A DNA stretch of 14,115 bases from UHGV virus genome UHGV-0305805; one strand, given 5' to 3'. Below are positions 1 through 13,979 of this stretch, piece by piece. Within the stretch, counting starts at the first letter, position 1. Each line of letters starts with the position of its first letter. The notes under the pieces are model-generated. The model searched no databases, was not told the DNA's origin, and worked only from the letters and a program-made list of their open reading frames with translations. The stretch is from a virus. The position numbers and the translations under genes are program-made.

Positions 1-133
1 AACAGCATACAGAAGGGGCTTAAAAGCCCCTTTAGTGTTTTATGGGTGAAAAAATTATGAAGAGTATGGAAATCCGGTCATCGGAAATCACTACCAGCGG
101 AGCCGGTACGCTGACGGGCTACGTTGTTCGCTG
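1..133. repeat. Inverted repeat, left copy: exact reverse complement of 3003-3135
   Basis: Base-by-base comparison: 1-133 equals the reverse complement of 3003-3135, and identity stops at 134 (g versus t). It contains the palindromic hairpin GGGGCTTAAAAGCCCC (14-29) plus T-rich tract, and the first ~30 codons of the protease gene. Confidence 0.9.
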
Positions 134-614: not shown

Positions 615-615
615 T

Positions 616-2162: not shown

Positions 2163-2455
2163 CAGAAGAACTTATCACCCTGGAAGAAGTGAAACTCCAT
2201 TGCCGCATCGATGGCGACGATGAAGACCAGTTAATCAGCGGATACATTGCCGCATCGCTTGAGGCGTGCCAGATACACATAGGCAGGCGCTTTGATGACG
2301 GGCTGGAGTTCACGCCAGCCATAAAGATTGGCTGCATGATGTTTATCGCTCACCTGTATGAAAATCGCCAGATTGTCGCGGATAACGCAAAAACACGCGT
2401 ACCCATGACGATAGGCGCACTCTGGACGGCTTACCGTGATGTGGGGGTGTACTGA
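2159..2455 (+). CDS. Head-tail connector (gp6-like DNA-packaging / connector protein)
   Basis: 98 aa; N-terminal ITLEEVKLHCRIDGDDEDQLI resembles the conserved N-terminus of gp6-type connectors. Translationally coupled on both sides. Confidence 0.65.
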   Translation: MTEELITLEEVKLHCRIDGDDEDQLISGYIAASLEACQIHIGRRFDDGLEFTPAIKIGCMMFIAHLYENRQIVADNAKTRVPMTIGALWTAYRDVGVY

Positions 2456-2895
2456 TGCCGTGGCAACCATTAAGACGATGCACAGAACCAGGCTGTAACA
2501 GGCGCGTTAAATCCGGCAAGTGTGAGGAGCACAGGCGGGCGGCATGGCGTGCAGAGGATGCCAGACGAGGACACCGCCGCGCGCGTGGATATTCCAGACA
2601 GTGGGACAAATACCGCGCCATGTATCTGAGTAAAAACCCGTTATGCGTGCGATGCCTTGAGAAGGGGATATATACGCCCGCCGTGGTGGTGGATCACATT
2701 ATCCCGATTAATGGCGGTGATGATGTTCTCTTCTGGCCCGAATGGAACCATCAACCATTGTGCCAGGCGTGTCATAACCAGAAAACGAAATGGCTTGATC
2801 CGGCAACAAAAAGCAAGCGTGCCGCAGGTGGATTTCGTGAAGAGGAAGAACGGGCCGCTAACCGCAATAACTGGATGTATGACGCTGATGAATGA
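2455..2895 (+). CDS. HNH endonuclease (packaging-associated)
   Basis: 146 aa with paired cysteine motifs (CTEPGCNRRV, CVRCLEKG) and the catalytic-type region VVDHIIPINGGDD...NHQPLCQACHNQKT. Confidence 0.85.
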   Translation: MPWQPLRRCTEPGCNRRVKSGKCEEHRRAAWRAEDARRGHRRARGYSRQWDKYRAMYLSKNPLCVRCLEKGIYTPAVVVDHIIPINGGDDVLFWPEWNHQPLCQACHNQKTKWLDPATKSKRAAGGFREEEERAANRNNWMYDADE

Positions 2896-3058
2896 GCGGG
2901 AACAAAACCGCCTTATCCGTGGACTTATAAGGCAGCGTGACGCATGGAAGACACAGGAAACAGGGCATAAAGATAAAGCGTCAGGACGCGCAGAACGCAT
3001 CACAGCGAACAACGTAGCCCGTCAGCGTACCGGCTCCGCTGGTAGTGATTTCCGATGA
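2888..3058 (+). CDS. Short ORF (56 aa) whose last 18 codons lie inside the inverted repeat; possible 5' remnant of a disrupted gene downstream of HNH
   Basis: ATG at 2888 overlaps the HNH stop. Codons 1-38 are unique sequence; the remainder is antisense of the protease 5' end supplied by the repeat. The longer 2657-3058 version in the ORF track overlaps HNH out of frame. Confidence 0.2.
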   Translation: MNEREQNRLIRGLIRQRDAWKTQETGHKDKASGRAERITANNVARQRTGSAGSDFR

Positions 3059-3135
3059 CCGGATTTCCATACTCTTCATAATTTTTTCACCCATAAAACA
3101 CTAAAGGGGCTTTTAAGCCCCTTCTGTATGCTGTT
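3003..3135. repeat. Inverted repeat, right copy: exact reverse complement of 1-133
   Basis: Same comparison as the left copy. The repeat ends one base short of the last capsid codon position (capsid stop is the complement of 3134-3136). Confidence 0.9.
3091..3121 (-). terminator. Intrinsic terminator after the capsid gene
   Basis: GC hairpin GGGGCTTTTAAGCCCC at 3106-3121; on the minus strand it is followed by TTTAGTGTTTT. A second copy sits at 14-39 inside the left repeat. Confidence 0.6.
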
Positions 3136-4291
3136 AATCGTCGTCCTGTGGCAGTTCCAGAATCTTGATCGCGTTCGAATCCACCACGCCACCGCCTAAA
3201 TATTTCTGCGTGAAAATTTTGATGAAGCCCGGCTCTGTGAGGTTGTCCGGTCTGGTGCGAACACCTGTTTCGTGATCAACAATGTAGTAACCGCGTTTGA
3301 AGTCACCCAGGGCAATAACGTTATCCGGCATAAACTCCAGATATTCGACCGGAAGGCCCAGTAACGTATCAGGATCACCCGCCTGTAAACGGTCGCGCCA
3401 GATGTAATCACCGTTCGCGTTCTTCACCTTCTGAAGTTTTGCCGCCGTCGTGGAGTTAACCACCCAGACCGCGTTTTTGCGGTATTTTTTACGTAATGCA
3501 AATTTCAGGTCGATCAGCGGGTCCGCAGATGTCCACGCCAGAGATTCGGAAGGTTTAATTACCTGCAACGTACCAAAATCACGCTCTTTGTCGTTCTTCT
3601 CTGCACGGGGTACGGATAAAAAGCCTTTTGCTTTTTTGTCACCGTCGCCCACAACCAGATCGCTTTCTTCGGTTTCCGTGAAGTTGTCGCCAATCTCGCC
3701 CGTCAGCCATGAAAGGATGTCCACATCGGAAAAATCCACGATTTCCTGCGTGGTGCGCGGGTACGCATAGACCGGATACAGCTTAATGCTCACCTCGTTA
3801 ATCTGCGGGGTGCTGGTCTGTTCGCGTGCCTTACCCTCTTCACCGTGGTTAACGGTCGCACCGCCAGCGGAAACAAGCTGCTTAAACTCGTTGCTGCTGA
3901 TTTTCTTCACGGTACAGATGCGGCGCATGGTGGATTCATCCGTCAGCATTCGCATGATTTCGGTGTTCAGTTCGGGGATAACGGTATAACCACCATCAGC
4001 GGGAACGCCTGTACTTAATGCGCGGGTTTCACCTGTCAGAATGTAGTGACGTAGTTCGGCTGGGTCAGTGGTCTGACTGCTTTTACCTGGCTTGCTGCGC
4101 TCTTCGTCTGCAATGGCTTCAAGGCGGGAAATGTCTTTATCGAGGGATTCAGCTTTAGCGCGTAATTCGTCAAATTTTGCGCCCTCAGCATCGTTAAGAC
4201 TGCGGTTTTCTTTTTCCGCGTTCTCCAGCATGTCGCGCATCTGATTTTTAATGGCGGTTTTCTGCTGGCGTAATTCGATTATTCTCGGCAT
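3134..4291 (-). CDS. Major capsid protein, HK97 fold, with an N-terminal coiled-coil (scaffold-like) domain
   Basis: 385 aa. The first ~70 residues are charged and heptad-like (ELRQQKTAIKNQMRDMLENAEKENRSL...), followed by a capsid-like body. Confidence 0.85.
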   Translation of the reverse strand: MPRIIELRQQKTAIKNQMRDMLENAEKENRSLNDAEGAKFDELRAKAESLDKDISRLEAIADEERSKPGKSSQTTDPAELRHYILTGETRALSTGVPADGGYTVIPELNTEIMRMLTDESTMRRICTVKKISSNEFKQLVSAGGATVNHGEEGKAREQTSTPQINEVSIKLYPVYAYPRTTQEIVDFSDVDILSWLTGEIGDNFTETEESDLVVGDGDKKAKGFLSVPRAEKNDKERDFGTLQVIKPSESLAWTSADPLIDLKFALRKKYRKNAVWVVNSTTAAKLQKVKNANGDYIWRDRLQAGDPDTLLGLPVEYLEFMPDNVIALGDFKRGYYIVDHETGVRTRPDNLTEPGFIKIFTQKYLGGGVVDSNAIKILELPQDDD

Positions 4292-4328
4292 AAAAAAAGT
4301 CCTGGGGTTAAGTAAGGAACTCCAGGAC
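4292..4328 (-). terminator. Leader hairpin plus U7 tract directly abutting the capsid start codon; the Shine-Dalgarno lies in the 3' arm
   Basis: Minus-strand RNA reads GUCCUGG...CCAGGAC then UUUUUUU then AUG. Stem 4299-4305 pairs with 4322-4328 and can extend by about 3 more pairs; AGGA is inside the 3' arm. Confidence 0.5.
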
Positions 4329-4503
4329 GCGGCAAAAACTCAACCGTTTTTCATAAGGAAATCAGCAATCGCACCGATCGTTTTCCCGCCTGGTAATGAA
4401 TATTGGCGAGAACATTAACAGGCGGAAAAGTGGCCCCAGCGTCCTGGCACCACGGGCGAGAATAATCATGATTCAGTTCGGGTAAAATATGCCGATCCGC
4501 TCA

Positions 4504-4532
4504 GTGAACAACGTGGAACAACCACGAACAAA
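4504..4532. promoter_or_regulatory. Phased GAACAA hexamers (x3, 10-bp spacing) including CAACGTGGAACAA; upstream of the capsid gene
   Basis: GAACAA at 4506, 4516 and 4526; the 13-mer CAACGTGGAACAA at 4509-4521. Confidence 0.4.
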
Positions 4533-4540
4533 TAATTTAC

Positions 4541-4572
4541 AAAACATGACAAAAAGCCGGATTGCTCCGGCT
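4541..4572 (-). terminator. Intrinsic terminator after the PerC-like gene
   Basis: Minus strand: AGCCGG-agcaat-CCGGCT followed by TTTTTGTCATGTTTT. Confidence 0.6.
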
Positions 4573-4578
4573 GTGTGA

Positions 4579-4860
4579 TTATCTGTCCTGGTAATTTCGC
4601 CATATTTCATTACCAGCACCATCCATACCCATTTCGGCATAAGTGCGATCGACCGCCTTTTTCAGGTCTCCGTAGTTATCCGGCGGCTCCGGTGGCCTCT
4701 GTGCCTTCCTGGAACATTCCAGCCGTCGCATCGTGATGTGATGCCGTTCCTTGTCTGTCTCCACCAGTTGCATGACTTCACCCCATCGCGCCGACGCTCT
4801 CCGGTAAAAGCCTTTCGCCTCCAGTTCTTCCGCTATGCGGTCATGTACCATCGTCCCCAC
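4579..4860 (-). CDS. Small regulator, PerC / ANR-like (tentative)
   Basis: 93 aa; the segment AEELEAKGFYRRASARWGEVM resembles the motif I recall for PerC/ANR-family small regulators. This is from memory and was not searched. Confidence 0.5.
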   Translation of the reverse strand: MGTMVHDRIAEELEAKGFYRRASARWGEVMQLVETDKERHHITMRRLECSRKAQRPPEPPDNYGDLKKAVDRTYAEMGMDGAGNEIWRNYQDR

Positions 4861-4863
4861 CCC

Positions 4864-5274
4864 TCAGAACGGAATATCATCACCGTAAGGGTCATCGCCT
4901 CCCGCTGGTGGCTGATTACCCTGTGTGCCTGTGGTCTTGCGTCGGCTCCCACCAGGACGTGCCGCACGGGCACTGATTACGCTGTCTGCAATAACCTGAT
5001 AACCCTGCCGCGTTTCCCCGTTCTGTCCGGTCCACTGGCTGACCTGCATCGTGCCGGATACGCTGGCAACGTCGCCTTTTTGATGTTTAGCCAGGAAGTC
5101 GGCCTGCTTACCAAATGCGATGACCGATAGCCATAACGTCGCCTGTCCATCCTGTGCCTGGCTGCATGGCAGCGATACCGCCATACGCGCCAGCGTCATC
5201 GGTGTACCCTTGCTGGTCTGTTTTACCTGCGGGTCGTCCACCAGCCGCCCGTAAGCTGCTATCTGTGCTGTCAT
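4864..5274 (-). CDS. ssb: Single-stranded DNA-binding protein
   Basis: 136 aa; Gly/Pro/Gln-rich linker and an acidic C-terminal tail ending DDIPF, the hallmark SSB tip. Confidence 0.8.
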   Translation of the reverse strand: MTAQIAAYGRLVDDPQVKQTSKGTPMTLARMAVSLPCSQAQDGQATLWLSVIAFGKQADFLAKHQKGDVASVSGTMQVSQWTGQNGETRQGYQVIADSVISARAARPGGSRRKTTGTQGNQPPAGGDDPYGDDIPF

Positions 5275-5549
5275 GATTCCACCTCTCCGGTTTTAACGTT
5301 GATGGTTGTTACCTGTTCCGCTTCGGCAATCTCCCGCTCTGTCAGCGTGGCAAAATTTGCCGCCGTCGTGGTCATGAATGCGCTTATCAGTTCGGGATGT
5401 GCTTTCGCGTATCCTTCCCCCGCGTGGCGGTCTATCGTTCTGATTGCCACCTTTAAAGCGTGCTCTGTCATGTCTAACGCGCGATATTTCGGTTCTGTTC
5501 TGTCTCTGCGTTTTTTGAGTGATTTATTAAATTTCCCTGAAGTGTGCAT
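5271..5549 (-). CDS. Hypothetical protein (92 aa)
   Basis: ORF between the origin iterons and ssb; its stop overlaps the ssb start (ATGA). Weak ribosome-binding site. Confidence 0.45.
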   Translation of the reverse strand: MHTSGKFNKSLKKRRDRTEPKYRALDMTEHALKVAIRTIDRHAGEGYAKAHPELISAFMTTTAANFATLTEREIAEAEQVTTINVKTGEVES

Positions 5550-5597
5550 ATTTATTTTTACCCCCTCGTTTAAAAAGTTTTGAGTTGTGCCTCCCCT

Positions 5598-5824
5598 TGT
5601 CTACCTTATCTACCTTAGTGGCCCTCATACCAGTAATGGCGCGGCTTTCAGCGGGGTAGAGTGCTTTTATCCACTATCTACCCCGTGTCTACCTCCCTGT
5701 CTGATTCAGGTAAAATCAGGTAGAGAGGGTAGATAGTGGGTAGACAGTAAAAAAAGGTTATCTACCTAACTTAATGCACTGAATTAAATGTATTTTTCTT
5801 TACTCAGGTAGACAGGGTAGACAG
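5598..5824. repeat. Iteron array, putative origin of replication (GGTAGACAG family, both orientations, with an AT-rich tract)
   Basis: At least 11 copies of GGTAGA[C/G/T]AG or its complement at 5598-5614, 5653-5661, 5674-5693, 5719-5747 (three in tandem), 5758-5766 and 5807-5824 (two in tandem). AT-rich stretch at 5770-5805. Immediately downstream of the primase gene. Confidence 0.75.
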
Positions 5825-5837
5825 CAATTACAAAAAA

Positions 5838-7592
5838 TTATAAAAACGCGTCGCACTCGTCTGTTGTTATTGCGTTAGTCTGCGTTACTCCCTTAACTTT
5901 CCGCGTAATATATTCATGTCCGTAAACTTTCGCGGCTGGCTTCATAGCCTTGCCAAAGTCATTTACGTTTAGCGGTTTGCTCCTGCCTGCGTACGCCATA
6001 AACGCCAGATAGACGCGGTAAAGGCTGTTTCTGGTCGTGTACTTCACTGAATCGCCACCGCCGCCCATCATCAGGCCGCGTGCTTCCTCCAGAAAATTCA
6101 GGAACTGGCAAAACTCAATAACCGGATCCGTCTGTTGCTTTATTGCCAGAGCTTCATCACCGTCACGCTGTTCCAGTAGTAAAGCCCGTGCCTTCTCAGG
6201 GTCGGTAAAGTTCGCCAGCAATCGGCGGATAATGACAGGGATTTCAGCCGCGATCTTTTCCGGTAGCTCCCTGTCTTTTTCGGCCTCACTGACGATATTG
6301 TCGAAACGGAAAATCACGCGACGACGTGCCACACCTCCGGCCCGTTCGGTGAATATCATCGGGTTATTGTTGGTCGCCAGCACCACCGCCCTGATTACCG
6401 CCGTGAAACGCTTTTCGTATTTCGGGTTAATTTCCACGGGGTCACCGCCCGTGATTTTCTTGATGCCCGTTCCTTCGCCTGTATATTTCGGCTGGTCAGC
6501 CAGGACGATAAGACGACTCCCGACAACCTGCGCACGTCCACCAGCATCATCAAGCGATGTCATTTCAGCGCTTACCGTGTTCTGTTTCCCTGCCAGAAGG
6601 CTGGCTATGTGTGTGAATGTACTTTTACCGCTCCCGCCGTCTCCGGTGGCCTCAATAAACATCTGCCAGTCGTACCGGTTCGCCATAATCATGTACAGCG
6701 CGGCACATATACGCATCATCTTGCGCGGGTCTTTTCCGGCTGCGTGCTCAAGCCATTTATGAAAGTTTGGCGCGTTATCGCGGATGTTCTCCCCTGGTGC
6801 TGGTGGCGTGTACTCAATGCCGTTGTGCGTGGTGATCCAGTTCTCCGGCGTGTGCGGGGAAAATTCCCCCGTTTTCAGGTCAAGCGCACCATTGGCGAAC
6901 GGCAACAAATCGCCGGACGGCTCGCCCATTGGTTCGGCAATAACTTTTAACGCTTCCACGGCGTTATTGATTACGCGCTTGCTGAAAGTGGCCCTGTGCT
7001 CTGAATAGATCGCCACCATTTCGCGGCTAAGTTCCATTGTGCTGACCGGACACCATACCCCGCCGCGCCATACGTGAACGATTTCACTTTCAGGATGTAC
7101 GCAAACGCCATCAAAGCGATCGGCAAGCAGCTGCGCGCGCTCACTGTCCGCCATCTGCGAAAGTTGCGCCTTTTGCTTTACCGGAAGCTCAATGACCAGA
7201 CCATCAGAAAGATTCTGGCGCTCACGGGCCAGATATTCGCGCCAGTTCTCCACCTTCTGACCGTGCATACCATCAGGGTAAAAATTTGCATCCTGTACGC
7301 CTGCCGCCGCCAGCTTCTGACCAATCGCCTTTATCATTACTGGCGCAAGATATCCGGCCCTGAATATGCGCACGGATTTTCTGCCTTCCGGCACAATTTG
7401 CAGCTTATCCAGTTCGGATAACTGCTGCTCCCCAAGCCACACAGGAGGCTCATTATCTCCGGCCATACGCGCGTCATGTTCCTGCCATTGTTTTGCGTGT
7501 GACCAGGCATCACTACCCGCAAAAATAATGACTTCTGTTTCTTTGTGTTTTATGCCGCGTGACTGCTGTTTTACGTTCGGTGCCAGTTTCAT
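5838..7592 (-). CDS. Primase / replicative helicase, P4-alpha-like
   Basis: 584 aa; Walker A GDGGSGKST and Walker B-like LIVLADQP in the C-terminal half, with a primase-like N-terminal half. Start overlaps the upstream ORF stop (ATGA). Confidence 0.85.
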   Translation of the reverse strand: MKLAPNVKQQSRGIKHKETEVIIFAGSDAWSHAKQWQEHDARMAGDNEPPVWLGEQQLSELDKLQIVPEGRKSVRIFRAGYLAPVMIKAIGQKLAAAGVQDANFYPDGMHGQKVENWREYLARERQNLSDGLVIELPVKQKAQLSQMADSERAQLLADRFDGVCVHPESEIVHVWRGGVWCPVSTMELSREMVAIYSEHRATFSKRVINNAVEALKVIAEPMGEPSGDLLPFANGALDLKTGEFSPHTPENWITTHNGIEYTPPAPGENIRDNAPNFHKWLEHAAGKDPRKMMRICAALYMIMANRYDWQMFIEATGDGGSGKSTFTHIASLLAGKQNTVSAEMTSLDDAGGRAQVVGSRLIVLADQPKYTGEGTGIKKITGGDPVEINPKYEKRFTAVIRAVVLATNNNPMIFTERAGGVARRRVIFRFDNIVSEAEKDRELPEKIAAEIPVIIRRLLANFTDPEKARALLLEQRDGDEALAIKQQTDPVIEFCQFLNFLEEARGLMMGGGGDSVKYTTRNSLYRVYLAFMAYAGRSKPLNVNDFGKAMKPAAKVYGHEYITRKVKGVTQTNAITTDECDAFL

Positions 7593-7888
7593 TTTTTACC
7601 CCTGAATCCGTTAATCATGGTTTTCAGCTTCTGGATGTTTGCCCGTGCCCTGGCGTTGCTGGTGGACACGTTATGCGGCGCGGTCTGTACCAGAGAAAAA
7701 TCACGCCGGAACTGATAAACAGGCATCACGCAATCATATTCGTAACCTTCACGGCGGTAGGTTACGCGCCGTTCTTCCACGCCCTTAATCATTACCGTGC
7801 CGCCGTACTGGTCGCGGTAAATATCGCCGCGCGTAAATTTAGGGTGAGTGTTGCCACTGGCAGTTAAGCCAGAATATTTAAGTTTCAT
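7589..7888 (-). CDS. Hypothetical protein (99 aa), translationally coupled to the primase
   Basis: ATG at 7886-7888; stop overlaps the primase start. Confidence 0.55.
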   Translation of the reverse strand: MKLKYSGLTASGNTHPKFTRGDIYRDQYGGTVMIKGVEERRVTYRREGYEYDCVMPVYQFRRDFSLVQTAPHNVSTSNARARANIQKLKTMINGFRGKK

Positions 7889-7893
7889 TATTT

Positions 7894-8127
7894 TTATTCT
7901 CCGGTGTGCTGTTCTTTATATCTGTCGTGCAATAGATCTATTTCTTGCAGTTCCATTATTACAGGCTCAAGAAGCGTTATTAATGCCGTGGCAATTCTTG
8001 ATTTTTGTTTGTCGCGTTCATTGTCGCCAAGTGTTTCAAGCCATATGCGCAATATTTCCAGCATGTTTTCACTGTGAGAAAGTGCAAGAAATGCGCGGTC
8101 TATTGTTTCGTGGTAAATATCACGCAT
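7894..8127 (-). CDS. Hypothetical protein (77 aa)
   Basis: ATG with GAGGA upstream; overlaps the stop of the upstream ORF by 8 nt. Confidence 0.55.
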   Translation of the reverse strand: MRDIYHETIDRAFLALSHSENMLEILRIWLETLGDNERDKQKSRIATALITLLEPVIMELQEIDLLHDRYKEQHTGE

Positions 8128-8353
8128 GGCTTACATCCTCAGGAAATTTTCTTCTATAACGCGCCTCTGCCACATATTCCGCATAATCGGCGGCGATATT
8201 CAGTACATCAAGCCCCGTTGATTTATATTCTCTCGTGGAAAGTAAGAAAAAAGCCGCTCTAATAAGTTCTGGCATTGACGAAAGCGCATCAGCCGCATCA
8301 TCAGGAACGCCGGAAAATTCCTGTTTCAGGGAATTAAAACGATCATCACGCAT
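8120..8353 (-). CDS. Hypothetical protein (77 aa)
   Basis: ATG with GGGGGG upstream; 8-nt overlap with the upstream ORF. Confidence 0.55.
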   Translation of the reverse strand: MRDDRFNSLKQEFSGVPDDAADALSSMPELIRAAFFLLSTREYKSTGLDVLNIAADYAEYVAEARYRRKFPEDVSHA

Positions 8354-8711
8354 GTTTACCCCCCTGAATGACCTGATAACCGCAACTGGTCAGCAACTCG
8401 ATAAATTCCGGCAGTGTGCCGAAACAGCAATCATCACGCAGCCGTTCACAGGATACCTCGACGCCGTTTTCGTAGTGACTCACCATACATCCGGTAAAAT
8501 GCAGATCATCATCGTGATGGCTCGTTGACGGCTTAATCAGTCGCGCACGTTCCGCCAGTTCCAGCAATGCTTCAACGCTTCCGGCAATTGCACCATCCGG
8601 CAGGTGATAATTACGCACTATGCGCCCGTTCTCCACATTGACCAGCAACTGCCCGGTAAATTTCTCATCAAACTGAATGCTGTTAAGGTCAGAAATTGAC
8701 AGATTATGCAT
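8346..8711 (-). CDS. Hypothetical protein (121 aa)
   Basis: ATG at 8709-8711 preceded by a perfect AGGAGG at about 6-nt spacing. The ORF track extends it to 8729. Confidence 0.6.
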   Translation of the reverse strand: MHNLSISDLNSIQFDEKFTGQLLVNVENGRIVRNYHLPDGAIAGSVEALLELAERARLIKPSTSHHDDDLHFTGCMVSHYENGVEVSCERLRDDCCFGTLPEFIELLTSCGYQVIQGGKHA

Positions 8712-8928
8712 GGTGCACCTCCTGCACATCAGCCATGATAATTTTTCCGGCCTTATCCAGTGCCTGATCGGCTTTTAGCTGCACAAATGCTAAATAATGG
8801 AAGATGCATTCTGATTCTCTGGCTGCGTGTTTATGCGCCCTGTCAGCAATAACAGAAATATCAATAAGCGCGTGCATCAGCGTAGTGAGCGCGGCGGCGG
8901 CTGCGTCCGGTGTGGTTTTATTGCACAT
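8704..8928 (-). CDS. Hypothetical protein (74 aa)
   Basis: ATG at 8926-8928 preceded by GGAGGGG. The ORF track extends it to 8982. Confidence 0.5.
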   Translation of the reverse strand: MCNKTTPDAAAAALTTLMHALIDISVIADRAHKHAARESECIFHYLAFVQLKADQALDKAGKIIMADVQEVHHA

Positions 8929-9148
8929 GTACCCCTCCGCATTTTTTTTCGTTAGAAATAAGCGTTCTTCTTTCCTGTTCATCGCTCAGGAATACGCAGA
9001 CCTCACCGCTAAGGCGTTTAAGTAAGCCGATGATTGCCCCTGATTCGCTGTCGGTCATCATGCCAGGGTAATCCTCTGCCAGTGCGCAAATAACTTCGAT
9101 TTGGTGGGCGCGTTCTGCTGCCTGTTGTAGTGTGATTTCCTGGCTCAT
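8918..9148 (-). CDS. Hypothetical protein (76 aa)
   Basis: ATG at 9146-9148 preceded by GGGGGTAGG; ATGA overlap with the upstream ORF. Confidence 0.55.
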   Translation of the reverse strand: MSQEITLQQAAERAHQIEVICALAEDYPGMMTDSESGAIIGLLKRLSGEVCVFLSDEQERRTLISNEKKCGGVHVQ

Positions 9149-9345
9149 AAGCCTACCCCCTGACGAATACGGGCAGCAAATACCATCACGCAGCCAGCCG
9201 GAGATTGCTGGCGTGCTTCCTGTTCGCTGGTGGCCTCAATGGTAATCACGCGCGGTTGTGCCGTGCTCAGGGCGATAAAACGCCAGATGTATTTATTCAG
9301 GTTGTGCGAGTCCCGCCCTTGCGGGTGTGTGGTATGATTTCTCAT
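9145..9345 (-). CDS. Hypothetical protein (66 aa), first gene of the leftward operon
   Basis: ATG at 9343-9345 preceded by GAGGTAG. It is the C-terminal part of a 340-aa ORF in the track that I regard as spurious upstream of this start. Confidence 0.5.
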   Translation of the reverse strand: MRNHTTHPQGRDSHNLNKYIWRFIALSTAQPRVITIEATSEQEARQQSPAGCVMVFAARIRQGVGL

Positions 9346-9441
9346 AGCTACCTCGATACTTTCGCTATCGTTGGTGGTTAGAAGCCCGGTTAGTGTTAGC
9401 GCACTGCCGGGTTTCGTCGTTTCTGCACCTTGCGCCAACAA

Positions 9442-9495
9442 GGTGTTGAACACCAATTTAAACCCAGGTGTTAAACACGTCAAGTGTTGAACACT
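9442..9495. promoter_or_regulatory. Three palindromic operator-like sites, GTGTT-N-AACAC, between divergent promoters
   Basis: GGTGTTGAACACC at 9442-9454, GTGTTAAACAC at 9468-9478, AGTGTTGAACACT at 9483-9495; centres 25 and 16 bp apart. The third overlaps a -35-like TTGAAC for the rightward gene. Confidence 0.6.
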
Positions 9496-9544
9496 TATTT
9501 TTTTTCCTGCATACTGCATTTGTTTTTTATGAGGGGTACACCAC

Positions 9545-9724
9545 ATGGCGACAAAAGCGGTAAACGCAAAATCACAAACCGTTGCGGCAAGGGTTCCGCA
9601 TGAAGTTATGAACAATGTTGAGGCGGTAAAAATGCCTGGCGAAAGTACGGGGCAATTTGTTACTGCGGCATTAAAACGAGAAGTTGAATATCGCCAGCGG
9701 CGCAAGGCCAAAGAACCAGAGTAA
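9545..9724 (+). CDS. Ribbon-helix-helix (Arc/CopG-like) DNA-binding protein, candidate repressor
   Basis: 59 aa, ATG preceded by GAGGGG at 8-nt spacing. Sequence fits a beta-strand (TVAARVPHEV) followed by two helices; basic C-terminus. Below the 60-aa cutoff of the ORF track. Confidence 0.55.
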   Translation: MATKAVNAKSQTVAARVPHEVMNNVEAVKMPGESTGQFVTAALKREVEYRQRRKAKEPE

Positions 9725-9781
9725 TCACCATCAGCGCCGTGGTGTAAGGTATTACGGCGCATTGCTATGCAGGACAACACA

Positions 9782-9955
9782 ATGACCGATAAAGAATTGA
9801 CCAAAACATTATCACCGGCACGGAAAAGACGGCGCAGAAAGATAGAGCATGAATCAGAAAGATTCGCGCCATGTGCTTTTGCCCTTGAGCAATTCCTTAA
9901 AGAGTACAGGGAAAAGCGCTCATTGCAGGTATGGCAACGAACTGAACCAGACTGA
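9782..9955 (+). CDS. Small basic protein (57 aa), possibly co-transcribed with the ribbon-helix-helix gene
   Basis: ATG at 9782 with AGGA about 9 nt upstream; arginine/lysine-rich (ARKRRRRKIEHE). Coding status uncertain. Confidence 0.3.
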   Translation: MTDKELTKTLSPARKRRRRKIEHESERFAPCAFALEQFLKEYREKRSLQVWQRTEPD

Positions 9956-10050
9956 TTGCATTGCCCACCAGCCTGATAACGGCTATCATCCCCGTGCTTA
10001 TGTTTGGGATCACACACACAAACGGCGCAGCGGGTTATCTGTTCAGAAAG

Positions 10051-10078
10051 GCGGCTCCATTTCGGGGCCGCTTTTTTT
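10051..10078 (+). terminator. Intrinsic terminator ending the rightward transcript
   Basis: GCGGCTCC-attc-GGGGCCGC followed by seven T. Confidence 0.65.
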
Positions 10079-10224
10079 ATACCTGAAAAACCCCAATTTT
10101 GTTGTTTTTCAGTTTCACCAGGGCGAACGAATCCCCGCCCACGTTCTGGCGTATATTCAATCTTCATGGTTATAGCTCTGTGTTCAGATGATTGATGTGT
10201 GGCGGCTGCGTGCCGCCAGCGTGA

Positions 10225-10413
10225 TTAATGAACTGCCTTGCAGCTATCCTTCCAGGCCAGAACCTCGGATAAAGACCAGCCAACGGAACGACCGCCAAGT
10301 TTACGACGTGATGGGAATTGTCCGGCCTTTTCCAGGCGGTAGCGACACGTACGGCTAAGGCCGGTTAGTTTTTCGCATTCTTTTTCACGTATAAACCGAT
10401 CAGTGCTTAACAC
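10225..10413 (-). CDS. alpA: AlpA-family phage regulatory protein (helix-turn-helix activator)
   Basis: Contains EKLTGLSRTCRYRLEKAGQFPSRRKLGGRSVGWSLSEVLAW, matching the AlpA helix-turn-helix signature. Likely start is GTG at 10411-10413 preceded by AGGGGGG; the ORF track extends it to 10494 with a TTG start. Confidence 0.8.
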   Translation of the reverse strand: MLSTDRFIREKECEKLTGLSRTCRYRLEKAGQFPSRRKLGGRSVGWSLSEVLAWKDSCKAVH

Positions 10414-10686
10414 TATTGCCCCCCTTTCGTTTCTTAAAGAGTCATCAGGTGTCTTATTGTGTCGTATTGTTCCCGCTAGAGTGATGAATGGCAAATACTG
10501 AGGATGTATGATTTACAGAAAATGAAACAGTAAGAATAAAATCTTTTAAATTCATGTTAATACAAAGGCATAAAATATTGTTCCATGCCTTTTTTCTCGC
10601 TCTTTAAAGAGTGATTCGCTAGTGTACAAAAAACCAGTAACGCATTAAAAATCAGCCACTTATAAATCCGTACGCTTTTTCGCCTC

Positions 10687-10730
10687 TTGTTCGTAGTTGT
10701 TCCACATTGTTGCTCATTGTTGCACGTTGT
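10687..10730. promoter_or_regulatory. Phased TTGTT[C/G] hexamers (x4, exactly 10-bp spacing) ending in the complement of CAACGTGCAACAA
   Basis: TTGTTC at 10687 and 10697, TTGTTG at 10707 and 10717; the 13-mer at 10717-10729. Located between the integrase stop and alpA, in opposite orientation to the other three clusters. Confidence 0.4.
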
Positions 10731-10778
10731 ATCTGTTCGCATATCCAGTATGCGCATACTGAAAAAACACGAAAAAAA

Positions 10779-12008
10779 TTATTTTCTTCTGGCTACGGGT
10801 AGCGTGGTTACGTTTTCATGTGTTCCCGCCAGTATCCCTAACCGCTCCGTCCACATATCCAGCGCATTGCGTTTCGCATCCAGATAACGGGAATGATTAT
10901 AAACTCGCTGCATTCCTGGCATCTGGTGGCCTGTAAGCTGCTCCACGACATGCGGATCAACGCCTAAATCGTTCAGCATGGTTGTAAAGGTGCGCCGGAT
11001 GTCATGCAGTGACCAGTGAGGGTGATTAAGCCTCCTGTACGCTAATCTTCCATACTGCGATACGCTGGCCTCCTGTTTCACTTCCCCCAGCAATAAGCCC
11101 GTGTGCCTGTTCTGCTCCACCAGCTGCGTGACGAACGGCAGGATCGCTTCCGGTATGGGCCGGAATATTGCGACCTTCGTTTTGCTGTGCTCCTTCGGAA
11201 CGGTCCATAGCATTTCCGTAAAATCCCACTCCCCGATCTCCGATAACCTCAGTTCTACCGTTCTGGCTCCGAAGACAATCAGGAGGCGGATTAACGCGAC
11301 GTAGTAAGGGGAGAATATTTTTTTGTCCAGTGCCTGCAATAATTCGCCAAGTTCTTTGTTACTTAAGACACGTTCGCTTATATCCGGTTTTTTCCCAACG
11401 TCCGCAACGTTCAGATCGTCCAGAACGTTGCTGATTGCATAGCGCCGCCTACGGCAGAACTTAAGCGCCTGTTTGCACGCCTGTAGCACGAATCCGGCAG
11501 TAACAGGCGTTCGCTTTGCCACCTGGTCAAAACAGGCCAGCCAGTGCCGTAGCTCGCATTTATCCAGCGGCATAGCACCAATCTGCTGTATTACGTGATT
11601 ATTAAGTCGCCTTTTCAGGGCGATATAATCCACGCGGTTTTCCTTTACGTAATACTCAAGCCAGTAGGTGAGCGCATCGCCAACCGTTACGGGCTTTAAC
11701 GCTTCCTGTACGGTGTAATTCATCTCATGACGTGGATTTTTCCCCTCAGCCAGCCATGTGCGACACTGTGCGGCTTTTTCCCTGGCTGCTTTCAGGCTCA
11801 GATCAGGATAACTTCCCAGCTTAATGCGTTCGGGTCGTGTCTCCCTTCCCGTTCCGGCCCTGTATGTGAAATACCAGGTCAATTTCCCTGATGTTAAATA
11901 TTTCACGCTCAGGTTTCCGCCATCACTATAAAACGTGTTTTTCTCCGCTGGCTTACCATGAAGTTTCCTTAGCAAGGTATCGCTCAGTTTGTTCATTGCT
12001 CTGCTCAC
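10779..12008 (-). CDS. int: Tyrosine recombinase / integrase, P4-like
   Basis: 409 aa with catalytic-region motifs ARTVELR, HDIRRTF and a C-terminal YNHSRYLD tyrosine context. Start could be GTG at 12008 or ATG at 11996. Confidence 0.9.
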   Translation of the reverse strand: MSRAMNKLSDTLLRKLHGKPAEKNTFYSDGGNLSVKYLTSGKLTWYFTYRAGTGRETRPERIKLGSYPDLSLKAAREKAAQCRTWLAEGKNPRHEMNYTVQEALKPVTVGDALTYWLEYYVKENRVDYIALKRRLNNHVIQQIGAMPLDKCELRHWLACFDQVAKRTPVTAGFVLQACKQALKFCRRRRYAISNVLDDLNVADVGKKPDISERVLSNKELGELLQALDKKIFSPYYVALIRLLIVFGARTVELRLSEIGEWDFTEMLWTVPKEHSKTKVAIFRPIPEAILPFVTQLVEQNRHTGLLLGEVKQEASVSQYGRLAYRRLNHPHWSLHDIRRTFTTMLNDLGVDPHVVEQLTGHQMPGMQRVYNHSRYLDAKRNALDMWTERLGILAGTHENVTTLPVARRK

Positions 12009-12033
12009 GTTTTACCCCCTCTTTACGAAAAAG

Positions 12034-12056
12034 TGACTACACCAGTGACTACACCG
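12034..12056. repeat. 23-bp direct repeat, copy 1: TGACTACACCAGTGACTACACCG (tandem decamers)
   Basis: Exact match to 12267-12289. Sits 26-48 bp upstream of the integrase start and is followed by CAACGTGAAACAA (12076-12088) and phased GAACAA-like hexamers to about 12109. Confidence 0.8.
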
Positions 12057-12266
12057 ATCGTTGCACAAAGGGCTACAACGTGAAACAAGCTGGAACAAGG
12101 AAAATCACAAATCTGTTGATAATCAAAAACATAATGCACAGCCTGAAACATTATGAAACAGCAAAAAACACTAAATGATAAAATGCTGTTATATATAACT
12201 TATTTCGCATAACACATTGATTTAATTAAATAATTAACACCGCAAAAAGTGCCAAAAATCGCAAAA

Positions 12267-12289
12267 TGACTACACCAGTGACTACACCG
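12267..12289. repeat. 23-bp direct repeat, copy 2, followed by CAACGTGGAACAA (12309-12321)
   Basis: Exact match to copy 1. The 210 bp between the two copies is strongly AT-rich. Confidence 0.8.
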
Positions 12290-12551
12290 TTCGGTGCACT
12301 GTATGAAACAACGTGGAACAAATAGACACAAGAAATATACAGGCGGATCATCTTTCCAGGGGGAAGCACACCAATTCATGAGGGGCGTTAATGTCGATAT
12401 GGGGATCCCCACCTACCGGAATTTTTTTCCGGTTAAACGTTAATCAGGCTGGTGGGCTTTACCTGTTCGGTAGGTGTTATGATTATCGTAATACCTTTCC
12501 CCCAATGGGGTAAAAGCATCAACCGTAACGAAAGTCGTTATGGTTGCCACT

Positions 12552-12662
12552 GATACCCCAAATTTGGGTATCACGAGTAAGCCCCAAAATCTGGGTGTTA
12601 CTCTTACTACCCAAACTACGGGTAGTTTCCGTAGTTTCATGGTCGAGTTGCAGATCTGCAAC
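12552..12662. repeat. Cluster of four palindromes/hairpins in a gene-free region
   Basis: GATACCCCAAATTTGGGTATC (12552-12572); a CCCAAA...GGG unit near 12582-12597; ACTACCC-aaactac-GGGTAGT (12606-12626); perfect palindrome GTTGCAGATCTGCAAC (12647-12662). The first three share a CCCAAA-N-GGG(T) core spaced about 26 bp. Confidence 0.5.
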
Positions 12663-12918
12663 TCCCCCATTAACCACAGGCGAATTTCCGCCTTCGGTCA
12701 TTCCTTAATCATCTGCGTAATCATAATGATTATTCAGCAAGCGCAATTTTGCGCTTTGCTTAAAGTTCAGCGAGTTACCGCGCCGACTTCCTCAAATTGA
12801 GGTTTCCGAAAATATCAGCGGGTTAGCGATTAAGCTGACCATTAATTAAACTGCGAAAATGTCGTAGTTGTGAGGGGTGTAGCCAACCCATTTTTGGGCC
12901 GTCGGGAATATCAACCAG

Positions 12919-13200
12919 TTACCGCCGCAACCGCTCCGGCTTCTTCCAGTGGTACGTTATTTTCTCCTTCTCCCGATACATCTCCACGCGGCGACGGTAG
13001 GCCAGCAACTCAAGAACTCTGGTTCGTATGTTGCGCATATCCACGCCATTAAGTTCTATACCATCACGGCGCATCACCTCAGCAACAACACGCGCATAGT
13101 TTTCGGCTGTCACGCTGTCCGGCTGCGTGGCCTGTTCGTCAGCCTGCTGGCTGATTCCGGCAACGCGGCGGATTAATCCCGTTATTTCGGCTTCTGTCAT
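12919..13200 (-). CDS. Hypothetical protein (93 aa) downstream of the terminase fragment
   Basis: ATG at 13198-13200 with GAGG 8 nt upstream; starts 11 nt after the terminase-fragment stop; composition is protein-like. Confidence 0.5.
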   Translation of the reverse strand: MTEAEITGLIRRVAGISQQADEQATQPDSVTAENYARVVAEVMRRDGIELNGVDMRNIRTRVLELLAYRRRVEMYREKEKITYHWKKPERLRR

Positions 13201-13213
13201 GCTGCTGACCTCA

Positions 13214-13963
13214 TTACACCCCGCTAAATTCTTCCAGTTTCTGGCGGTGGCTGTCGCTTATATCAAAAGCAAAATCCTCATGCTCTGCCTGGAATGTACC
13301 AAACGCCATCAGCGCCGCCACGCTCGGGTCTATCTTGTTCGGTGATTTTTTCTTGTTCGGCTTGATATTGGCGTTCGCGTCACTCTGCATCACGACGTTA
13401 CTCATCGACCAGGACAACACCGGATCGCCACGATGCACAATCACCCTGCGGTTAACAAAAACTTCGAACGATTTCGCCGCCGGACTGAATCTGAGGTAGG
13501 TTTGCGGGAACGGCTCCACCTCAAAACCTGCCCCCTGTAATTGCGTTCTGAGATGCGTGGCGTTCCACGTATCAAAGCCCACCAGCCTGATATTAAATTT
13601 CTCCGCGTCCTGCATGATGTCATCTCTGATCCGGTCGTAATCAATGCAGTCGCCAGGCGTTGTGCGTATCCAGCCTGCTTTAGCCCACTGACGATAGATG
13701 GCGCGGTTTTTATTGGCGGGGTTCTGTAGCTGAAATTCCGGCAGATAGTGACGGGAAACCAGCATAATGGTTTTACCGACCGGAAAGGCATAGCACACGC
13801 TGGAAATATCGCTGGTTGATGATAAGTCCAGCCCCGCGTAACACTCCTGGCCGTGTAAATCTTCCTCCGTGAACGTTCCGGCACACTCAGCCCATGCGCC
13901 GTTACCCATCCACGGGGTAGCCCCCTGGCACCAGATATTAAATCGCTTTGTCATCATCTCCAC
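13214..13963 (-). CDS. Terminase large subunit, C-terminal nuclease domain only (N-terminal ATPase absent; truncated or rearranged)
   Basis: 249 aa with acidic nuclease-type motifs YAGLDLSSTSD, LVGFDTWN and KIDPSVAALMAF. No Walker A. The reading frame upstream is closed by a stop about 12 codons before the start, and the start lies inside an inverted repeat. Confidence 0.65.
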   Translation of the reverse strand: MEMMTKRFNIWCQGATPWMGNGAWAECAGTFTEEDLHGQECYAGLDLSSTSDISSVCYAFPVGKTIMLVSRHYLPEFQLQNPANKNRAIYRQWAKAGWIRTTPGDCIDYDRIRDDIMQDAEKFNIRLVGFDTWNATHLRTQLQGAGFEVEPFPQTYLRFSPAAKSFEVFVNRRVIVHRGDPVLSWSMSNVVMQSDANANIKPNKKKSPNKIDPSVAALMAFGTFQAEHEDFAFDISDSHRQKLEEFSGV

Positions 13964-13979
13964 CCACTGCGACGGAATA
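13922..13979. repeat. Inverted repeat, inner copy: reverse complement of 14058-14115, the last bases of the window
   Basis: Exact 58-bp match separated by a 78-bp spacer (13980-14057). The outer copy runs off the window, so the repeat may be longer. Confidence 0.9.

What the first reader, a model, noticed from the sequence alone, without database searches (positions are those of the whole stretch)
9545..10078. Ribbon-helix-helix gene followed by a small highly basic ORF and a strong terminator, convergent on alpA
The rightward unit is a 59-aa ribbon-helix-helix protein, a possible 57-aa arginine/lysine-rich protein (9782-9955) and a textbook terminator (10051-10078) that stops read-through into antisense alpA and the integrase. 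The pair could be a repressor with a co-factor or a toxin-antitoxin-like addiction module. The ribbon-helix-helix ORF is under 60 aa, so it is missing from the ORF track and easy to overlook.
Basis: inference. Interest (0 to 1): 0.45.

Follow-up and report, generated by a model that had tools for sequence, protein, structure and literature searches.

The report
Overlooked repressor module in phage satellites
A tiny DNA-binding protein gene, hidden on the opposite strand between the activator gene and the replication genes of an E. coli phage satellite, looks like the repressor that Gram-negative satellites of this type were thought to lack.

Summary
9545-9724 encodes a 59-aa YlcI/YnfO-family protein whose model matches ribbon-helix-helix (RHH) folds. 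9782-9955 is a conserved 57-aa ORF. 10051-10078 is an orientation-specific intrinsic terminator.

The window is an E. coli capsid-forming PICI / P4-like satellite. The same module sits in the prototype EcCICFT073.

New evidence:
- At least 12 RHH specificity types each carry their own 2-3 repeated operators in the divergent promoter region. In the window these lie at 9441-9494, over the leftward icd-to-primase promoter. This marks the RHH as an autoregulated repressor.
- ORF2 stays nearly constant while RHH types swap, and it is absent from Salmonella and Xenorhabdus relatives. It is therefore not a type-specific partner, and the toxin-antitoxin reading is disfavoured.
- The whole module lies antisense inside a long leftward ORF (9145-10167) that ends in an Icd-like domain, as P4 eta does. 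This frame is kept stop-free in seven lineages.
- A covarying + strand SymR-like RNA (9346 to about 9425) is antisense to the icd-like start.

Best model, inferred and with no expression data: a three-layer switch. The RHH and the sRNA keep replication genes off. AlpA-driven, translated read-through overrides them.

The module is unstudied. It bears on the question of whether Gram-negative PICIs have a global repressor.

The parts
9545..9724 (+). 59-aa ribbon-helix-helix protein of the YlcI/YnfO family. Candidate satellite repressor.
9441..9494 (.). Three copies of the near-palindrome (A/G)GTGTT(G/A)AACAC at 9441-9453, 9466-9478 and 9482-9494. Candidate RHH operators.
   Evidence: the repeat finder family D1. 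Each RHH type has its own repeat at equivalent positions, giving a block-diagonal cross-occurrence matrix.
9455..9483 (-). Leftward sigma-70-like promoter for the icd-like to primase operon, the PLE analogue. -35 TTGACG at 9483-9478, -10 TAAATT at 9460-9455. It is interleaved with the operators.
   Evidence: Promoter scan. The positions relative to the repeats are my reading.
9487..9515 (+). Probable RHH promoter. -35 TTGAAC at 9487-9492, inside operator 3. -10 CATACT at 9510-9515, preceded by TG.
   Evidence: Read from the sequence. It scores 8 of 12 and is below the scan threshold. Other RHH types have TGTGTATACT at the equivalent place. Inference.
9734..9760 (+). GC-rich hairpin in the constant 57-nt spacer between the RHH gene and ORF2.
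   Evidence: Fold -17.7 kcal/mol, z -1.5. Conserved in 18 spacer variants but without compensatory changes. Function unknown.
9782..9955 (+). ORF2. A 57-aa protein with a basic N-terminus (SPARKRRRRK) and one long conserved helix (ERFAPCAFALExFLKEY).
   Evidence: 36 clusters, all named ones E. coli or Shigella. Only 9 hits among 1.84 billion representatives. phrog_21027, function unknown. AF2 gives a helix at 24-54 and a disordered N-terminus. In-frame indels only. dN/dS 0.29. PGAP calls it a CDS in some genomes, including CFT073.
10051..10078 (+). Intrinsic terminator of the RHH-ORF2 transcript. Weak in the opposite orientation.
   Evidence: Folds. Terminators of several apparently unrelated sequences are found after ORF2 in all 90 loci.
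9145..10167 (-). 340-codon leftward ORF that contains the whole module in antisense and ends in the 66-aa Icd-like gene (9145-9345). Analogue of P4 eta/kil.
   Evidence: 0 stops in this phase against 21 and 15 in the other two. Open for 180-607 codons in all related loci and in 7 lineages. Icd-like domain at residues 293-336. P4 eta carries the same domain at 161-208. P4 mechanism from PMC10111431.
9346..9425 (+). Candidate cis-antisense sRNA, SymR-like, covering the 5'UTR, SD and start codon of the icd-like gene. Promoter TGGTATGAT at 9330-9338.
   Evidence: Rfam symR at 33.3 bits, E 0.004, below the gathering score of 61. In 44 variants, 98.8% of cells pair on the + strand and 78.4% on the - strand. 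Five pairs show compensatory changes, and 0 of 500 shuffles reach the covariation score. Fold is -35.1 (z -4.3) on + and -20.6 (z -1.1) on -.
10225..10413 (-). alpA, the activator/excisionase-family gene, convergent with the module.
   Evidence: PF05930 at E 1.5e-16. PGAP annotation in strain C7.

Best explanation
The finding is the protein arm of the immunity/regulatory region of an E. coli capsid-forming PICI (P4-like satellite).

Shown by comparison:
- The 59-aa protein has an RHH fold.
- Its predicted DNA-reading N-terminal segment co-varies with 2-3 operator repeats in the divergent promoter region.

Inferred for the quiescent state:
- RHH dimers bind the three sites at 9441-9494. This occludes the leftward promoter of the icd-like to primase (replication) operon.
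- The same binding damps the RHH's own promoter. The satellite therefore stays silent while integrated.
- The RHH transcript also carries ORF2, a small basic one-helix protein made in the repressed state. ORF2 works independently of RHH specificity. My best guess is that it binds nucleic acid through its arginine-rich N-terminus.
- The transcript is stopped by the terminator before it can run antisense into alpA and int.
- A second layer is a + strand antisense sRNA that masks the icd-like ribosome-binding site.

Inferred for induction, by analogy with P4 eta/vis:
- The helper phage switches on alpA.
- Transcripts from the alpA promoter run leftward through the weak-in-this-direction terminator, over ORF2, the RHH gene and the operators.
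- They are translated as one long Eta-like ORF, so Rho cannot stop them and the sRNA-masked start site is bypassed.
- Convergent transcription also shuts down RHH synthesis.

For: Repressor-operator covariation:
- There are at least 12 RHH types.
- Each has its own repeat at about -102, -77 and -32 from the RHH ATG (window: -104, -79, -63). Motifs of one type are absent from the regions of other types.
- Two types with similar strands (QLTTVR and QMTTVR) have similar motifs.

Sites overlap the predicted promoters.

Synteny holds in four genera and in EcCICFT073 and EcCIO42.

Terminator: it is orientation-specific and replaced by unrelated terminators in related loci.

Eta-like ORF:
- Stop depletion of 0-2 against 10-28 in 7 lineages.
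- Openness is not explained by the RHH protein sequences alone. The probability of zero stops under synonymous randomisation is 0.09-0.8 per type, and the product over 12 types is about 4e-7.
- It is in frame with icd, or ends 8-37 nt before it, in most loci.
- It carries the Icd-like domain, as P4 eta does.
- It has an ATGA overlap with the upstream gene in vB_KppS-Ant.
- The P4 precedent is quoted in PMC10111431.

AlpA-dependent expression of downstream genes, and induction by AlpA overexpression, are reported for EcCICFT073 in PMC6092414.

sRNA.
Against: - There are no expression, binding or genetic data for any part. Everything about function is comparative inference.
- Pfam and PDB sequence searches give no RHH hit.
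- The AF2 monomer models the N-terminal segment as a low-confidence helix, not a strand.
- The RHH promoter is below the scan threshold.
- Published work found AlpA sufficient to induce EcCICFT073 and saw no need for a repressor.
- Third codon positions of the two strands coincide, so dN/dS cannot cleanly separate sense from antisense constraint.
- The N-terminal part of the Eta-like ORF shows only a weak coding signature, with changes of 6/8/12 by codon position, and a weak SD.
- In about a third of E. coli loci the long ORF is not in frame with icd.
Confidence: 0.62

Rival explanations
1. Type II toxin-antitoxin (addiction) module, with the RHH as antitoxin and autorepressor and ORF2 as a small toxin that stabilises the island.
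For: - RHH-first gene order.
- ORF2 is small, basic and an orphan.
Against: - ORF2 is nearly invariant while the RHH is swapped among at least 12 types. These include Arc-like proteins that score only marginally against the YlcI/YnfO profile.
- The RHH stands alone in Salmonella and Xenorhabdus.
- The 59-aa RHH has only about 10 residues beyond the fold, too few to bind a toxin.
- A 57-nt spacer with its own SD separates the genes, so they are not coupled.
- There is no toxin or defence family hit.
- The operators sit on the replication-operon promoter, not only on the RHH's own promoter.
Confidence: 0.08
2. Repressor plus co-repressor. ORF2 binds the RHH, or the same DNA, and tightens or modulates repression.
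For: - The two genes are co-transcribed and adjacent with a fixed spacing in every E. coli locus examined.
- ORF2 has an arginine-rich segment fit for nucleic-acid contact.
- The C-terminal tails of the RHH types next to the junction are conserved.
Against: - There is no co-variation between ORF2 and either the RHH type or the operator sequence.
- The RHH-operator systems in other genera lack ORF2.
Confidence: 0.12
3. ORF2 is not translated. Its conservation reflects constraint on the other strand (the Eta-like ORF) or on the 3' part of the RHH mRNA.
For: - The antisense frame is open and shares third positions with ORF2.
- PGAP often does not call ORF2.
- The SD is only AGGA.
- The family is tiny.
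Against: - dN/dS is lower in the sense frame than in the antisense frame (0.29 against 0.48), and codon position 2 is the least variable.
- Replacements in the core are conservative in the sense frame and radical in the antisense frame.
- The ATG and AGG are conserved in all 18 spacer variants.
- The conserved block ends about 18 nt after the ORF2 stop.
- The AF2 helix is confident, pLDDT 94 over residues 31-40.
Confidence: 0.18
4. The long antisense ORF is a by-product with no function, and AlpA simply activates the leftward promoter directly.
For: - Its sequence looks non-protein-like (rich in C, R and S) and matches no family outside the Icd-like end.
- Its SD is weak.
- AlpA is described as an activator of PICI genes.
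Against: - Stops are depleted in exactly this phase in 7 lineages, including AT-rich Xenorhabdus (40% GC, 1 stop against 19 and 16).
- The frame is preserved across the non-coding promoter region and across varied RHH types and the unrelated Klebsiella downstream ORF.
- The homologous architecture in P4 has a published function.
Confidence: 0.3

Closest known systems
Phage P22 immI region (Mnt and Arc ribbon-helix-helix repressors at divergent Pant/Pmnt promoters, plus the sar antisense RNA); from my own knowledge
   Same: - Small RHH repressor.
- Operators in a divergent promoter region.
- Autoregulation.
- A short cis-antisense RNA masking the ribosome-binding site of the repressed operon's gene.
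   Different: - There is no detectable sequence relationship to Arc or Mnt for the window's YlcI/YnfO type.
- The controlled operon is a satellite replication operon headed by an Icd-like gene, not an antirepressor.
- The module lies antisense inside a long ORF.
Satellite phage P4 immunity/late-control region (vis = AlpA homologue, PLL/PLE, nested eta/kil genes, CI RNA)
   Same: - Order int, alpA/vis, long ORF ending in an Icd-like domain (NF033153 in both), then primase operon.
- An internal promoter lies inside the long ORF.
- Translation of the long ORF from the upstream promoter is reported to prevent termination (PMC10111431).
   Different: - P4 uses the CI RNA as immunity factor, and no RHH gene is annotated there.
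- Rfam C4/isrK models do not hit the window.
- The window's long ORF starts 57 nt after alpA rather than overlapping it.
SaPI Stl / Gram-positive PICI Rpr master repressors
   Same: A divergently transcribed repressor between the int side and the replication module. It keeps the island silent.
   Different: - Stl proteins are larger HTH repressors lifted by binding a helper-phage protein.
- Here the repressor is a 59-aa RHH, and the likely override is AlpA-driven read-through.
- Whether a phage protein also targets the RHH is unknown.
YlcI (DLP12) and YnfO (Qin) of E. coli K-12
   Same: Same NCBIfam family, NF041551.
   Different: Those are uncharacterised prophage genes in other contexts (my knowledge). 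No functional study was found in the paper library.
SymR/SymE of E. coli
   Same: - A roughly 77-nt antisense RNA.
- Its promoter lies just inside the target's coding region.
- It covers the target's SD and start codon.
- There is weak model similarity, 33 bits.
   Different: - The score is below Rfam's gathering score of 61.
- The target is an Icd-like gene, not SymE.
- This feature lies outside the finding's coordinates.
RHH antitoxins of type II TA systems (TacA, CopA, ParD, MazE-mt)
   Same: Best structural matches.
   Different: No cognate toxin, no toxin-binding tail, and no co-variation with the downstream ORF.

Membership tests
YlcI/YnfO family (NCBIfam NF041551) | HMM score above the curated cutoff of 30 bits | tested here: met
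   59.7 bits, E 2.1e-16, residues 9-50 covering the whole 42-position model. PGAP gives the same name in E. coli genomes.
Ribbon-helix-helix (CopG/Arc/MetJ) superfamily | Strand-helix-helix topology matching solved RHH domains | tested here: met
Ribbon-helix-helix (CopG/Arc/MetJ) superfamily | N-terminal segment forms a beta-strand that pairs in a dimer and reads the major groove | tested here: inconclusive
   The AF2 monomer gives a low-confidence helix at 8-16. The intermolecular sheet cannot form in a monomer, and no multimer tool was available. The segment (positions 11-15) is the most variable part of the family and tracks operator type.
Ribbon-helix-helix (CopG/Arc/MetJ) superfamily | Sequence match to an RHH Pfam family or a solved RHH protein | tested here: not met
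   There is no Pfam hit for the window protein. Family members give only faint hits to RHH-type families (CB_ParB_C, PSK_trans_fac). PDB sequence and profile searches are empty.
Phage/satellite immunity repressor with cognate operators | Repeated binding sites overlapping the regulated promoters and specific to the repressor variant | tested here: met
   Three repeats lie over the -35/-10/TSS of the leftward promoter and the -35 of the rightward one. The motif-by-region matrix is block-diagonal over 23 distinct RHH sequences of about 12 types. Binding itself was not tested.
Type II toxin-antitoxin module | Downstream gene is a recognisable toxin | tested here: not met
   ORF2 has no hit in Pfam, NCBIfam or PADLOC. 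Its only hit is phrog_21027, function unknown.
Type II toxin-antitoxin module | Antitoxin and toxin co-occur and co-vary as a specific pair | tested here: not met
   ORF2 is constant across at least 12 RHH types. The RHH stands alone in Salmonella and Xenorhabdus and has a different neighbour in Klebsiella.
Type II toxin-antitoxin module | Toxicity of the second gene neutralised by the first | not testable with these tools
   Needs expression experiments.
Intrinsic (Rho-independent) terminator | GC-rich hairpin directly followed by a U-run on the transcribed strand | tested here: met
   An 8-bp GC stem, a 5-nt loop and seven Ts. Folds at -22 to -25 kcal/mol, z about -4.3. The - strand version is weak.
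P4 Eta-like read-through ORF | Long ORF starting at or just after the alpA/vis homologue and ending in an Icd-like domain, with an internal promoter for the short form | tested here: met
   The window ORF 10167-9145 starts 57 nt after the alpA stop. NF033153 matches at residues 293-336. P4 eta 8812-8168 overlaps the vis end and has NF033153 at 161-208. The internal promoter is predicted.
P4 Eta-like read-through ORF | Its translation prevents premature transcription termination | not testable with these tools
   Only indirect evidence exists: the frame is kept open in 7 lineages.
SymR (Rfam RF01809) | Score at or above the gathering threshold of 61 bits | tested here: not met
   33.3 bits, E 0.004. 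The resemblance is in geometry and structure, so membership is not claimed.

The most novel reading that the evidence does not exclude
Gram-negative PICIs and cf-PICIs, including the prototypes EcCICFT073, EcCIO42 and EcCIEDL933-like elements, do possess a master repressor. It is a family of 57-106-aa ribbon-helix-helix proteins with swappable operator specificity.

The repressor gene is encoded antisense inside an Eta-like ORF. AlpA-driven transcription and translation therefore run over the repressor gene, its operators and an antisense-sRNA-masked start site. This gives a three-layer, overlapping-gene switch that explains how a helper phage can induce these islands through an activator alone.
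Probability: 0.45. Interest if true: 0.75.

Novelty: new variant of a known kind. Interest (0 to 1): 0.6.

Why it matters
[quoted passage not shown] It calls the different induction strategy 'a mystery' (PMC6092414). The cf-PICI preprint does not contain the word 'repressor'.

The module examined here is present in those very elements. It was annotated only recently because both genes are under 60 aa.

If the RHH is the maintenance repressor, several things follow:
- It gives a direct handle on how these widespread islands stay silent and are induced. They carry virulence, defence and capsid genes.
- It suggests 'immunity types' among satellites.
- It offers a compact example of two-strand coding in which openness of one frame, rather than its sequence, is selected.

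All of this is testable with simple reporter, gel-shift and stop-codon experiments.

Tried and rejected
Searches that returned nothing useful:
- Pfam on the RHH and on 35 family members gave no RHH family above noise.
- PDB sequence and profile searches gave only chance hits, such as DNA polymerase beta.
- PADLOC gave no defence or TA family.
- Rfam at E up to 1 gave no C4/isrK (P4/P1 immunity RNA). The only hit was the sub-threshold symR.
- No tRNA gene was found in the window.

ORF2 distribution:
- The genome-contig scan for ORF2 found one locus, in Shigella, so there is no spread outside Escherichia/Shigella.
- The exhaustive profile search found 9 representatives, one of them a 1141-aa repetitive protein that is probably spurious.

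Tests that were indecisive:
- The spacer hairpin 9734-9760 is conserved but shows no compensatory changes and z is only -1.5. I make no claim about it.
- Simple counts of synonymous and nonsynonymous variants could not separate the two strands, because their third positions coincide. dN/dS and the ranking of positions 1 and 2 were used instead.
- tblastn of the 340-aa ORF against phages found only vB_KppS-Ant and not P4. The link to P4 eta rests on the shared NF033153 domain and on architecture.
- The Bro-N signal in the CFT073 long ORF is weak, E 0.069, and is not relied on.

Ideas considered and dropped:
- Stop-codon read-through joining the RHH and ORF2, which share a frame separated by one TAA. 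Nothing supports it.
- The 108-aa + strand ORF 9849-10175. It runs through the terminator.

Literature:
- Searches found no functional study of YlcI/YnfO or of an RHH in PICIs.
- The 'putative repressor' of EcCIMP1 is a PerC-like protein, not this gene.
Full report
CONTEXT

The window is an Escherichia coli phage satellite of the capsid-forming PICI / P4-like kind. The region 9300-10200 is 100% identical to many E. coli chromosomes.

In strain C7 the element sits next to tqsA/pntB. Its gene order there is:
- integrase and an AlpA-family regulator;
- a leftward operon running from an Icd-like gene through small ORFs, DUF4222, a D5-type primase, SSB and PerC;
- HK97-type capsid, protease, portal, connectors and HNH.

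In window coordinates:
- int is 10779-12008 (-);
- alpA is 10225-10413 (-);
- the Icd-like gene is 9145-9345 (-);
- the primase is 5838-7592 (-).

The finding lies on the + strand between alpA and the Icd-like gene. It is divergent from the latter and convergent with the former.

THE OBSERVATION

All three features exist as described.

The RHH gene:
- The 59-aa ORF 9545-9724 has a GAGGGG Shine-Dalgarno.
- It matches the NCBIfam YlcI/YnfO model well above cutoff and phrog_949.
- Neither Pfam nor PDB sequence searches recognise it.
- The monomer model draws the N-terminal segment as a weak helix. This is not informative, because the ribbon forms only in the dimer.

ORF2 (9782-9955):
- It is preceded by AGGA plus 7 nt.
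- It has 36 homologous clusters, all named ones from E. coli or Shigella.
- An exhaustive profile search of 1.84 billion representatives adds almost nothing.
- Homologues differ only by in-frame indels.
- Nine distinct DNA variants encode the identical protein.
- dN/dS is 0.29 in the sense frame and 0.48 in the overlapping antisense frame. Codon position 2 is the least variable.
- The model is a disordered arginine-rich N-terminus followed by one confident long helix.

The terminator (10051-10078):
- It folds at -22 to -25 kcal/mol, z about -4.3, on the + strand and at only -12.3 on the - strand.
- Every one of 90 related loci has a + strand terminator 85-370 nt after ORF2, built from several apparently unrelated hairpin sequences. 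This argues that termination itself is selected.

WHAT THE RHH DOES

The intergenic region holds three copies of GTGTT(G/A)AACAC. They interleave with a leftward sigma-70-like promoter (-35 at 9483-9478, -10 at 9460-9455). They also overlap a plausible rightward -35.

Across related loci the gene upstream of ORF2 comes in at least 12 types:
- 59-aa YlcI/YnfO proteins with different residues at positions 11-15;
- 101-106-aa versions with a C-terminal extension;
- a DUF3950-like type;
- two Arc/HicB-like RHH types.

Each type has its own 2-3 repeated 10-13-mers at equivalent positions. A motif-by-region matrix is block-diagonal:
- loci with the same N-terminal segment share a motif;
- motifs of one type are absent from the regions of other types;
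- the two most similar segments (QLTTVR and QMTTVR) have the two most similar motifs.

This is the classic signature of repressor-operator co-evolution in mosaic immunity regions. I therefore read the RHH as an autoregulated repressor of the leftward replication operon. Binding itself is not shown.

The same gene occupies the same slot in Salmonella, Klebsiella and Xenorhabdus satellites. It also does so in the 16.5-kb 'phage' vB_KppS-Ant.

WHAT ORF2 IS NOT

ORF2 and the 57-nt spacer before it are nearly invariant, while the RHH upstream is exchanged.

ORF2 is missing in Salmonella and Xenorhabdus, where the RHH is followed directly by a terminator. In Klebsiella an unrelated 84-aa ORF replaces it.

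It matches no toxin or defence family.

A specific partnership with the RHH, as toxin or as co-repressor, is therefore unlikely, though not excluded.

ORF2 is best described as an Escherichia-specific accessory gene that rides on the repressor transcript and is expressed in the silent state. Its arginine-rich N-terminus suggests nucleic-acid binding. This is a guess.

THE SURROUNDINGS CHANGE THE PICTURE

The whole module lies antisense inside a 340-codon leftward ORF (9145-10167). That ORF is in frame with the Icd-like gene.

Evidence that this frame is kept open:
- It has no stop over 879 nt, while the other two antisense phases have 21 and 15.
- The two non-coding flanks alone give P about 0.018 each under shuffling.
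- It stays open for 180-607 codons in all related loci.
- In seven lineages, including AT-rich Xenorhabdus, it has 0-2 stops against 10-28 in the other phases.
- Given each RHH protein sequence, random synonymous codon choice keeps the frame open with a probability of only 0.09-0.8 per type.
- In most E. coli loci the ORF runs into icd in frame or ends 8-37 nt before its ATG.
- In vB_KppS-Ant it is annotated as a 324-aa CDS with an ATGA overlap to the upstream gene.

The parallel with P4:
- The C-terminus of the window ORF is the NF033153 Icd-like domain.
- The P4 eta ORF begins at the end of the AlpA homologue vis and carries the same domain at its C-terminus.
- For P4, a constitutive promoter is reported to lie inside eta.
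- Full-length Eta is reported to be translated only from the upstream late promoter and to be coupled to the alpA homologue.
- That translation is reported to prevent termination (PMC10111431 citing Forti et al. 1999).

The window's ORF is thus an Eta analogue whose N-terminal 274 codons overlap the RHH, ORF2 and the terminator on the other strand.

The amino-acid sequence of that part looks unconstrained. What is conserved is its openness.

A THIRD LAYER

A structured + strand RNA lies immediately left of the operators, from 9346 to about 9425.
- Rfam reports a sub-threshold SymR match.
- In 44 sequence variants the two-hairpin structure pairs in 98.8% of cells on the + strand and 78.4% on the - strand.
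- Five pairs show compensatory changes, and no shuffle reaches the covariation score.
- The + strand fold is -35.1 kcal/mol (z -4.3). The - strand fold is -20.6 (z -1.1).
- The second hairpin is followed by a U-rich tail.
- A conserved extended -10 (TGGTATGAT, 9330-9338) lies inside icd codons 2-5.

The RNA would be fully complementary to the 5'UTR, SD and start codon of the Icd-like gene. This is the geometry of SymR/SymE and of P22 sar.

MODEL (inferred)

Silent state:
- The RHH holds the leftward promoter and its own promoter.
- The sRNA blocks translation of leaky transcripts.
- The terminator protects alpA and int from antisense transcription.

Induced state:
- The helper phage turns on alpA, as published for EcCICFT073.
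- Transcripts continue leftward through the weak reverse side of the terminator.
- Ribosomes translating the Eta-like ORF keep Rho off.
- These ribosomes deliver translation into icd without using its masked start site.
- Transcription arrives from upstream of the operators, so it escapes RHH repression.
- Convergent transcription silences the RHH gene.

COMPARISON WITH WHAT IS KNOWN, AND NOVELTY

The pieces are of known kinds:
- an Arc/Mnt-like repressor with operators;
- a P4-like eta read-through;
- a SymR/sar-like antisense RNA.

I found no description of their combination, or of the antisense nesting of the repressor module inside the Eta-like ORF.

[quoted passage not shown] The cf-PICI preprint does not contain the word 'repressor'. 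Searches for YlcI/YnfO or for RHH proteins in PICIs returned nothing relevant.

The module is nevertheless present in EcCICFT073 (RHH at NC_004431 1380473-1380652, with an ORF2 identical in protein to the window's) and in EcCIO42.

I rate it a new variant of a known kind, of moderate to high interest. The open question it touches is explicit in the literature, and the tests are simple.

LIMITS

- Nothing here shows transcription, translation or binding.
- Related loci are not independent samples.
- Third codon positions coincide on the two strands, which weakens codon-based tests.
- The RHH promoter and the start of the Eta-like ORF are weak by consensus.

Noticed in passing
window 9330-9425 (+): Candidate cis-antisense sRNA against the 5'UTR, SD and ATG of the icd-like gene. 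It has a conserved extended -10 inside icd codons 2-5, two covarying hairpins and a U-rich tail. It gives a sub-threshold Rfam SymR match. The structure is strongly strand-specific, with 98.8% of cells paired on + and 78.4% on -.
   Followed up: yes
window 9145-10167 (-): A 340-codon ORF antisense to the whole finding and in frame with the Icd-like gene. PGAP annotates pieces of it as 'Icd-like protein' (133 aa) and as a pseudogene. It is kept stop-free in 7 lineages. It is an analogue of P4 eta, sharing the C-terminal NF033153 domain.
   Followed up: yes
L102 (NC_004431.1 1380242-1380652) and L002 (NC_017626.1): The prototype Gram-negative PICIs EcCICFT073 and EcCIO42 carry the same RHH + ORF2 module. 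The CFT073 genes have late-added PGAP locus tags (C_RS30120, C_RS30800), which suggests they were annotated only recently. In CFT073 the Eta-like ORF is 433 codons long, with a faint Bro-N signal (E 0.069).
   Followed up: partly
window 1-2998 and 13214-13963: The protease-portal-connector-HNH block (1-2998, + strand) is inverted relative to its arrangement in complete E. coli genomes. A terminase-large-subunit fragment lies to the right of int. Window 2999-13979 is colinear at 100% with, for example, NZ_CM128674. The window may come from a rearranged or mis-joined contig, or from tandem elements.
   Followed up: partly
window 9722-9784: The RHH and ORF2 share one reading frame, separated by a single TAA and 19 sense codons. 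The 57-nt spacer length is constant in almost all of the related loci examined and contains a GC hairpin (9734-9760) with no compensatory changes.
   Followed up: partly
window 10201-10217 (-): GC hairpin (GGCGGC-N5-GCCGCC) directly after the alpA stop and before the ATG of the long ORF. It is conserved in CFT073 and has no U-run. Role unknown.
   Followed up: no
L088, L090, L098 (related loci): In some related satellites an AntA/AntB antirepressor or Bro-N gene is inserted on the alpA strand between alpA and the ORF2/RHH module. In L087 and L089 extra small + strand ORFs follow ORF2. This zone is a hotspot for gene exchange.
   Followed up: no
L103 (P4, NC_001609 8168-8584): The old P4 'cI gene product' CDS, still annotated 'transcriptional repressor', is the C-terminal part of eta and carries the Icd-like domain. 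This is probably why PHROGs labels Icd-like families (phrog_6196, phrog_1743) as 'transcriptional repressor'.
   Followed up: partly
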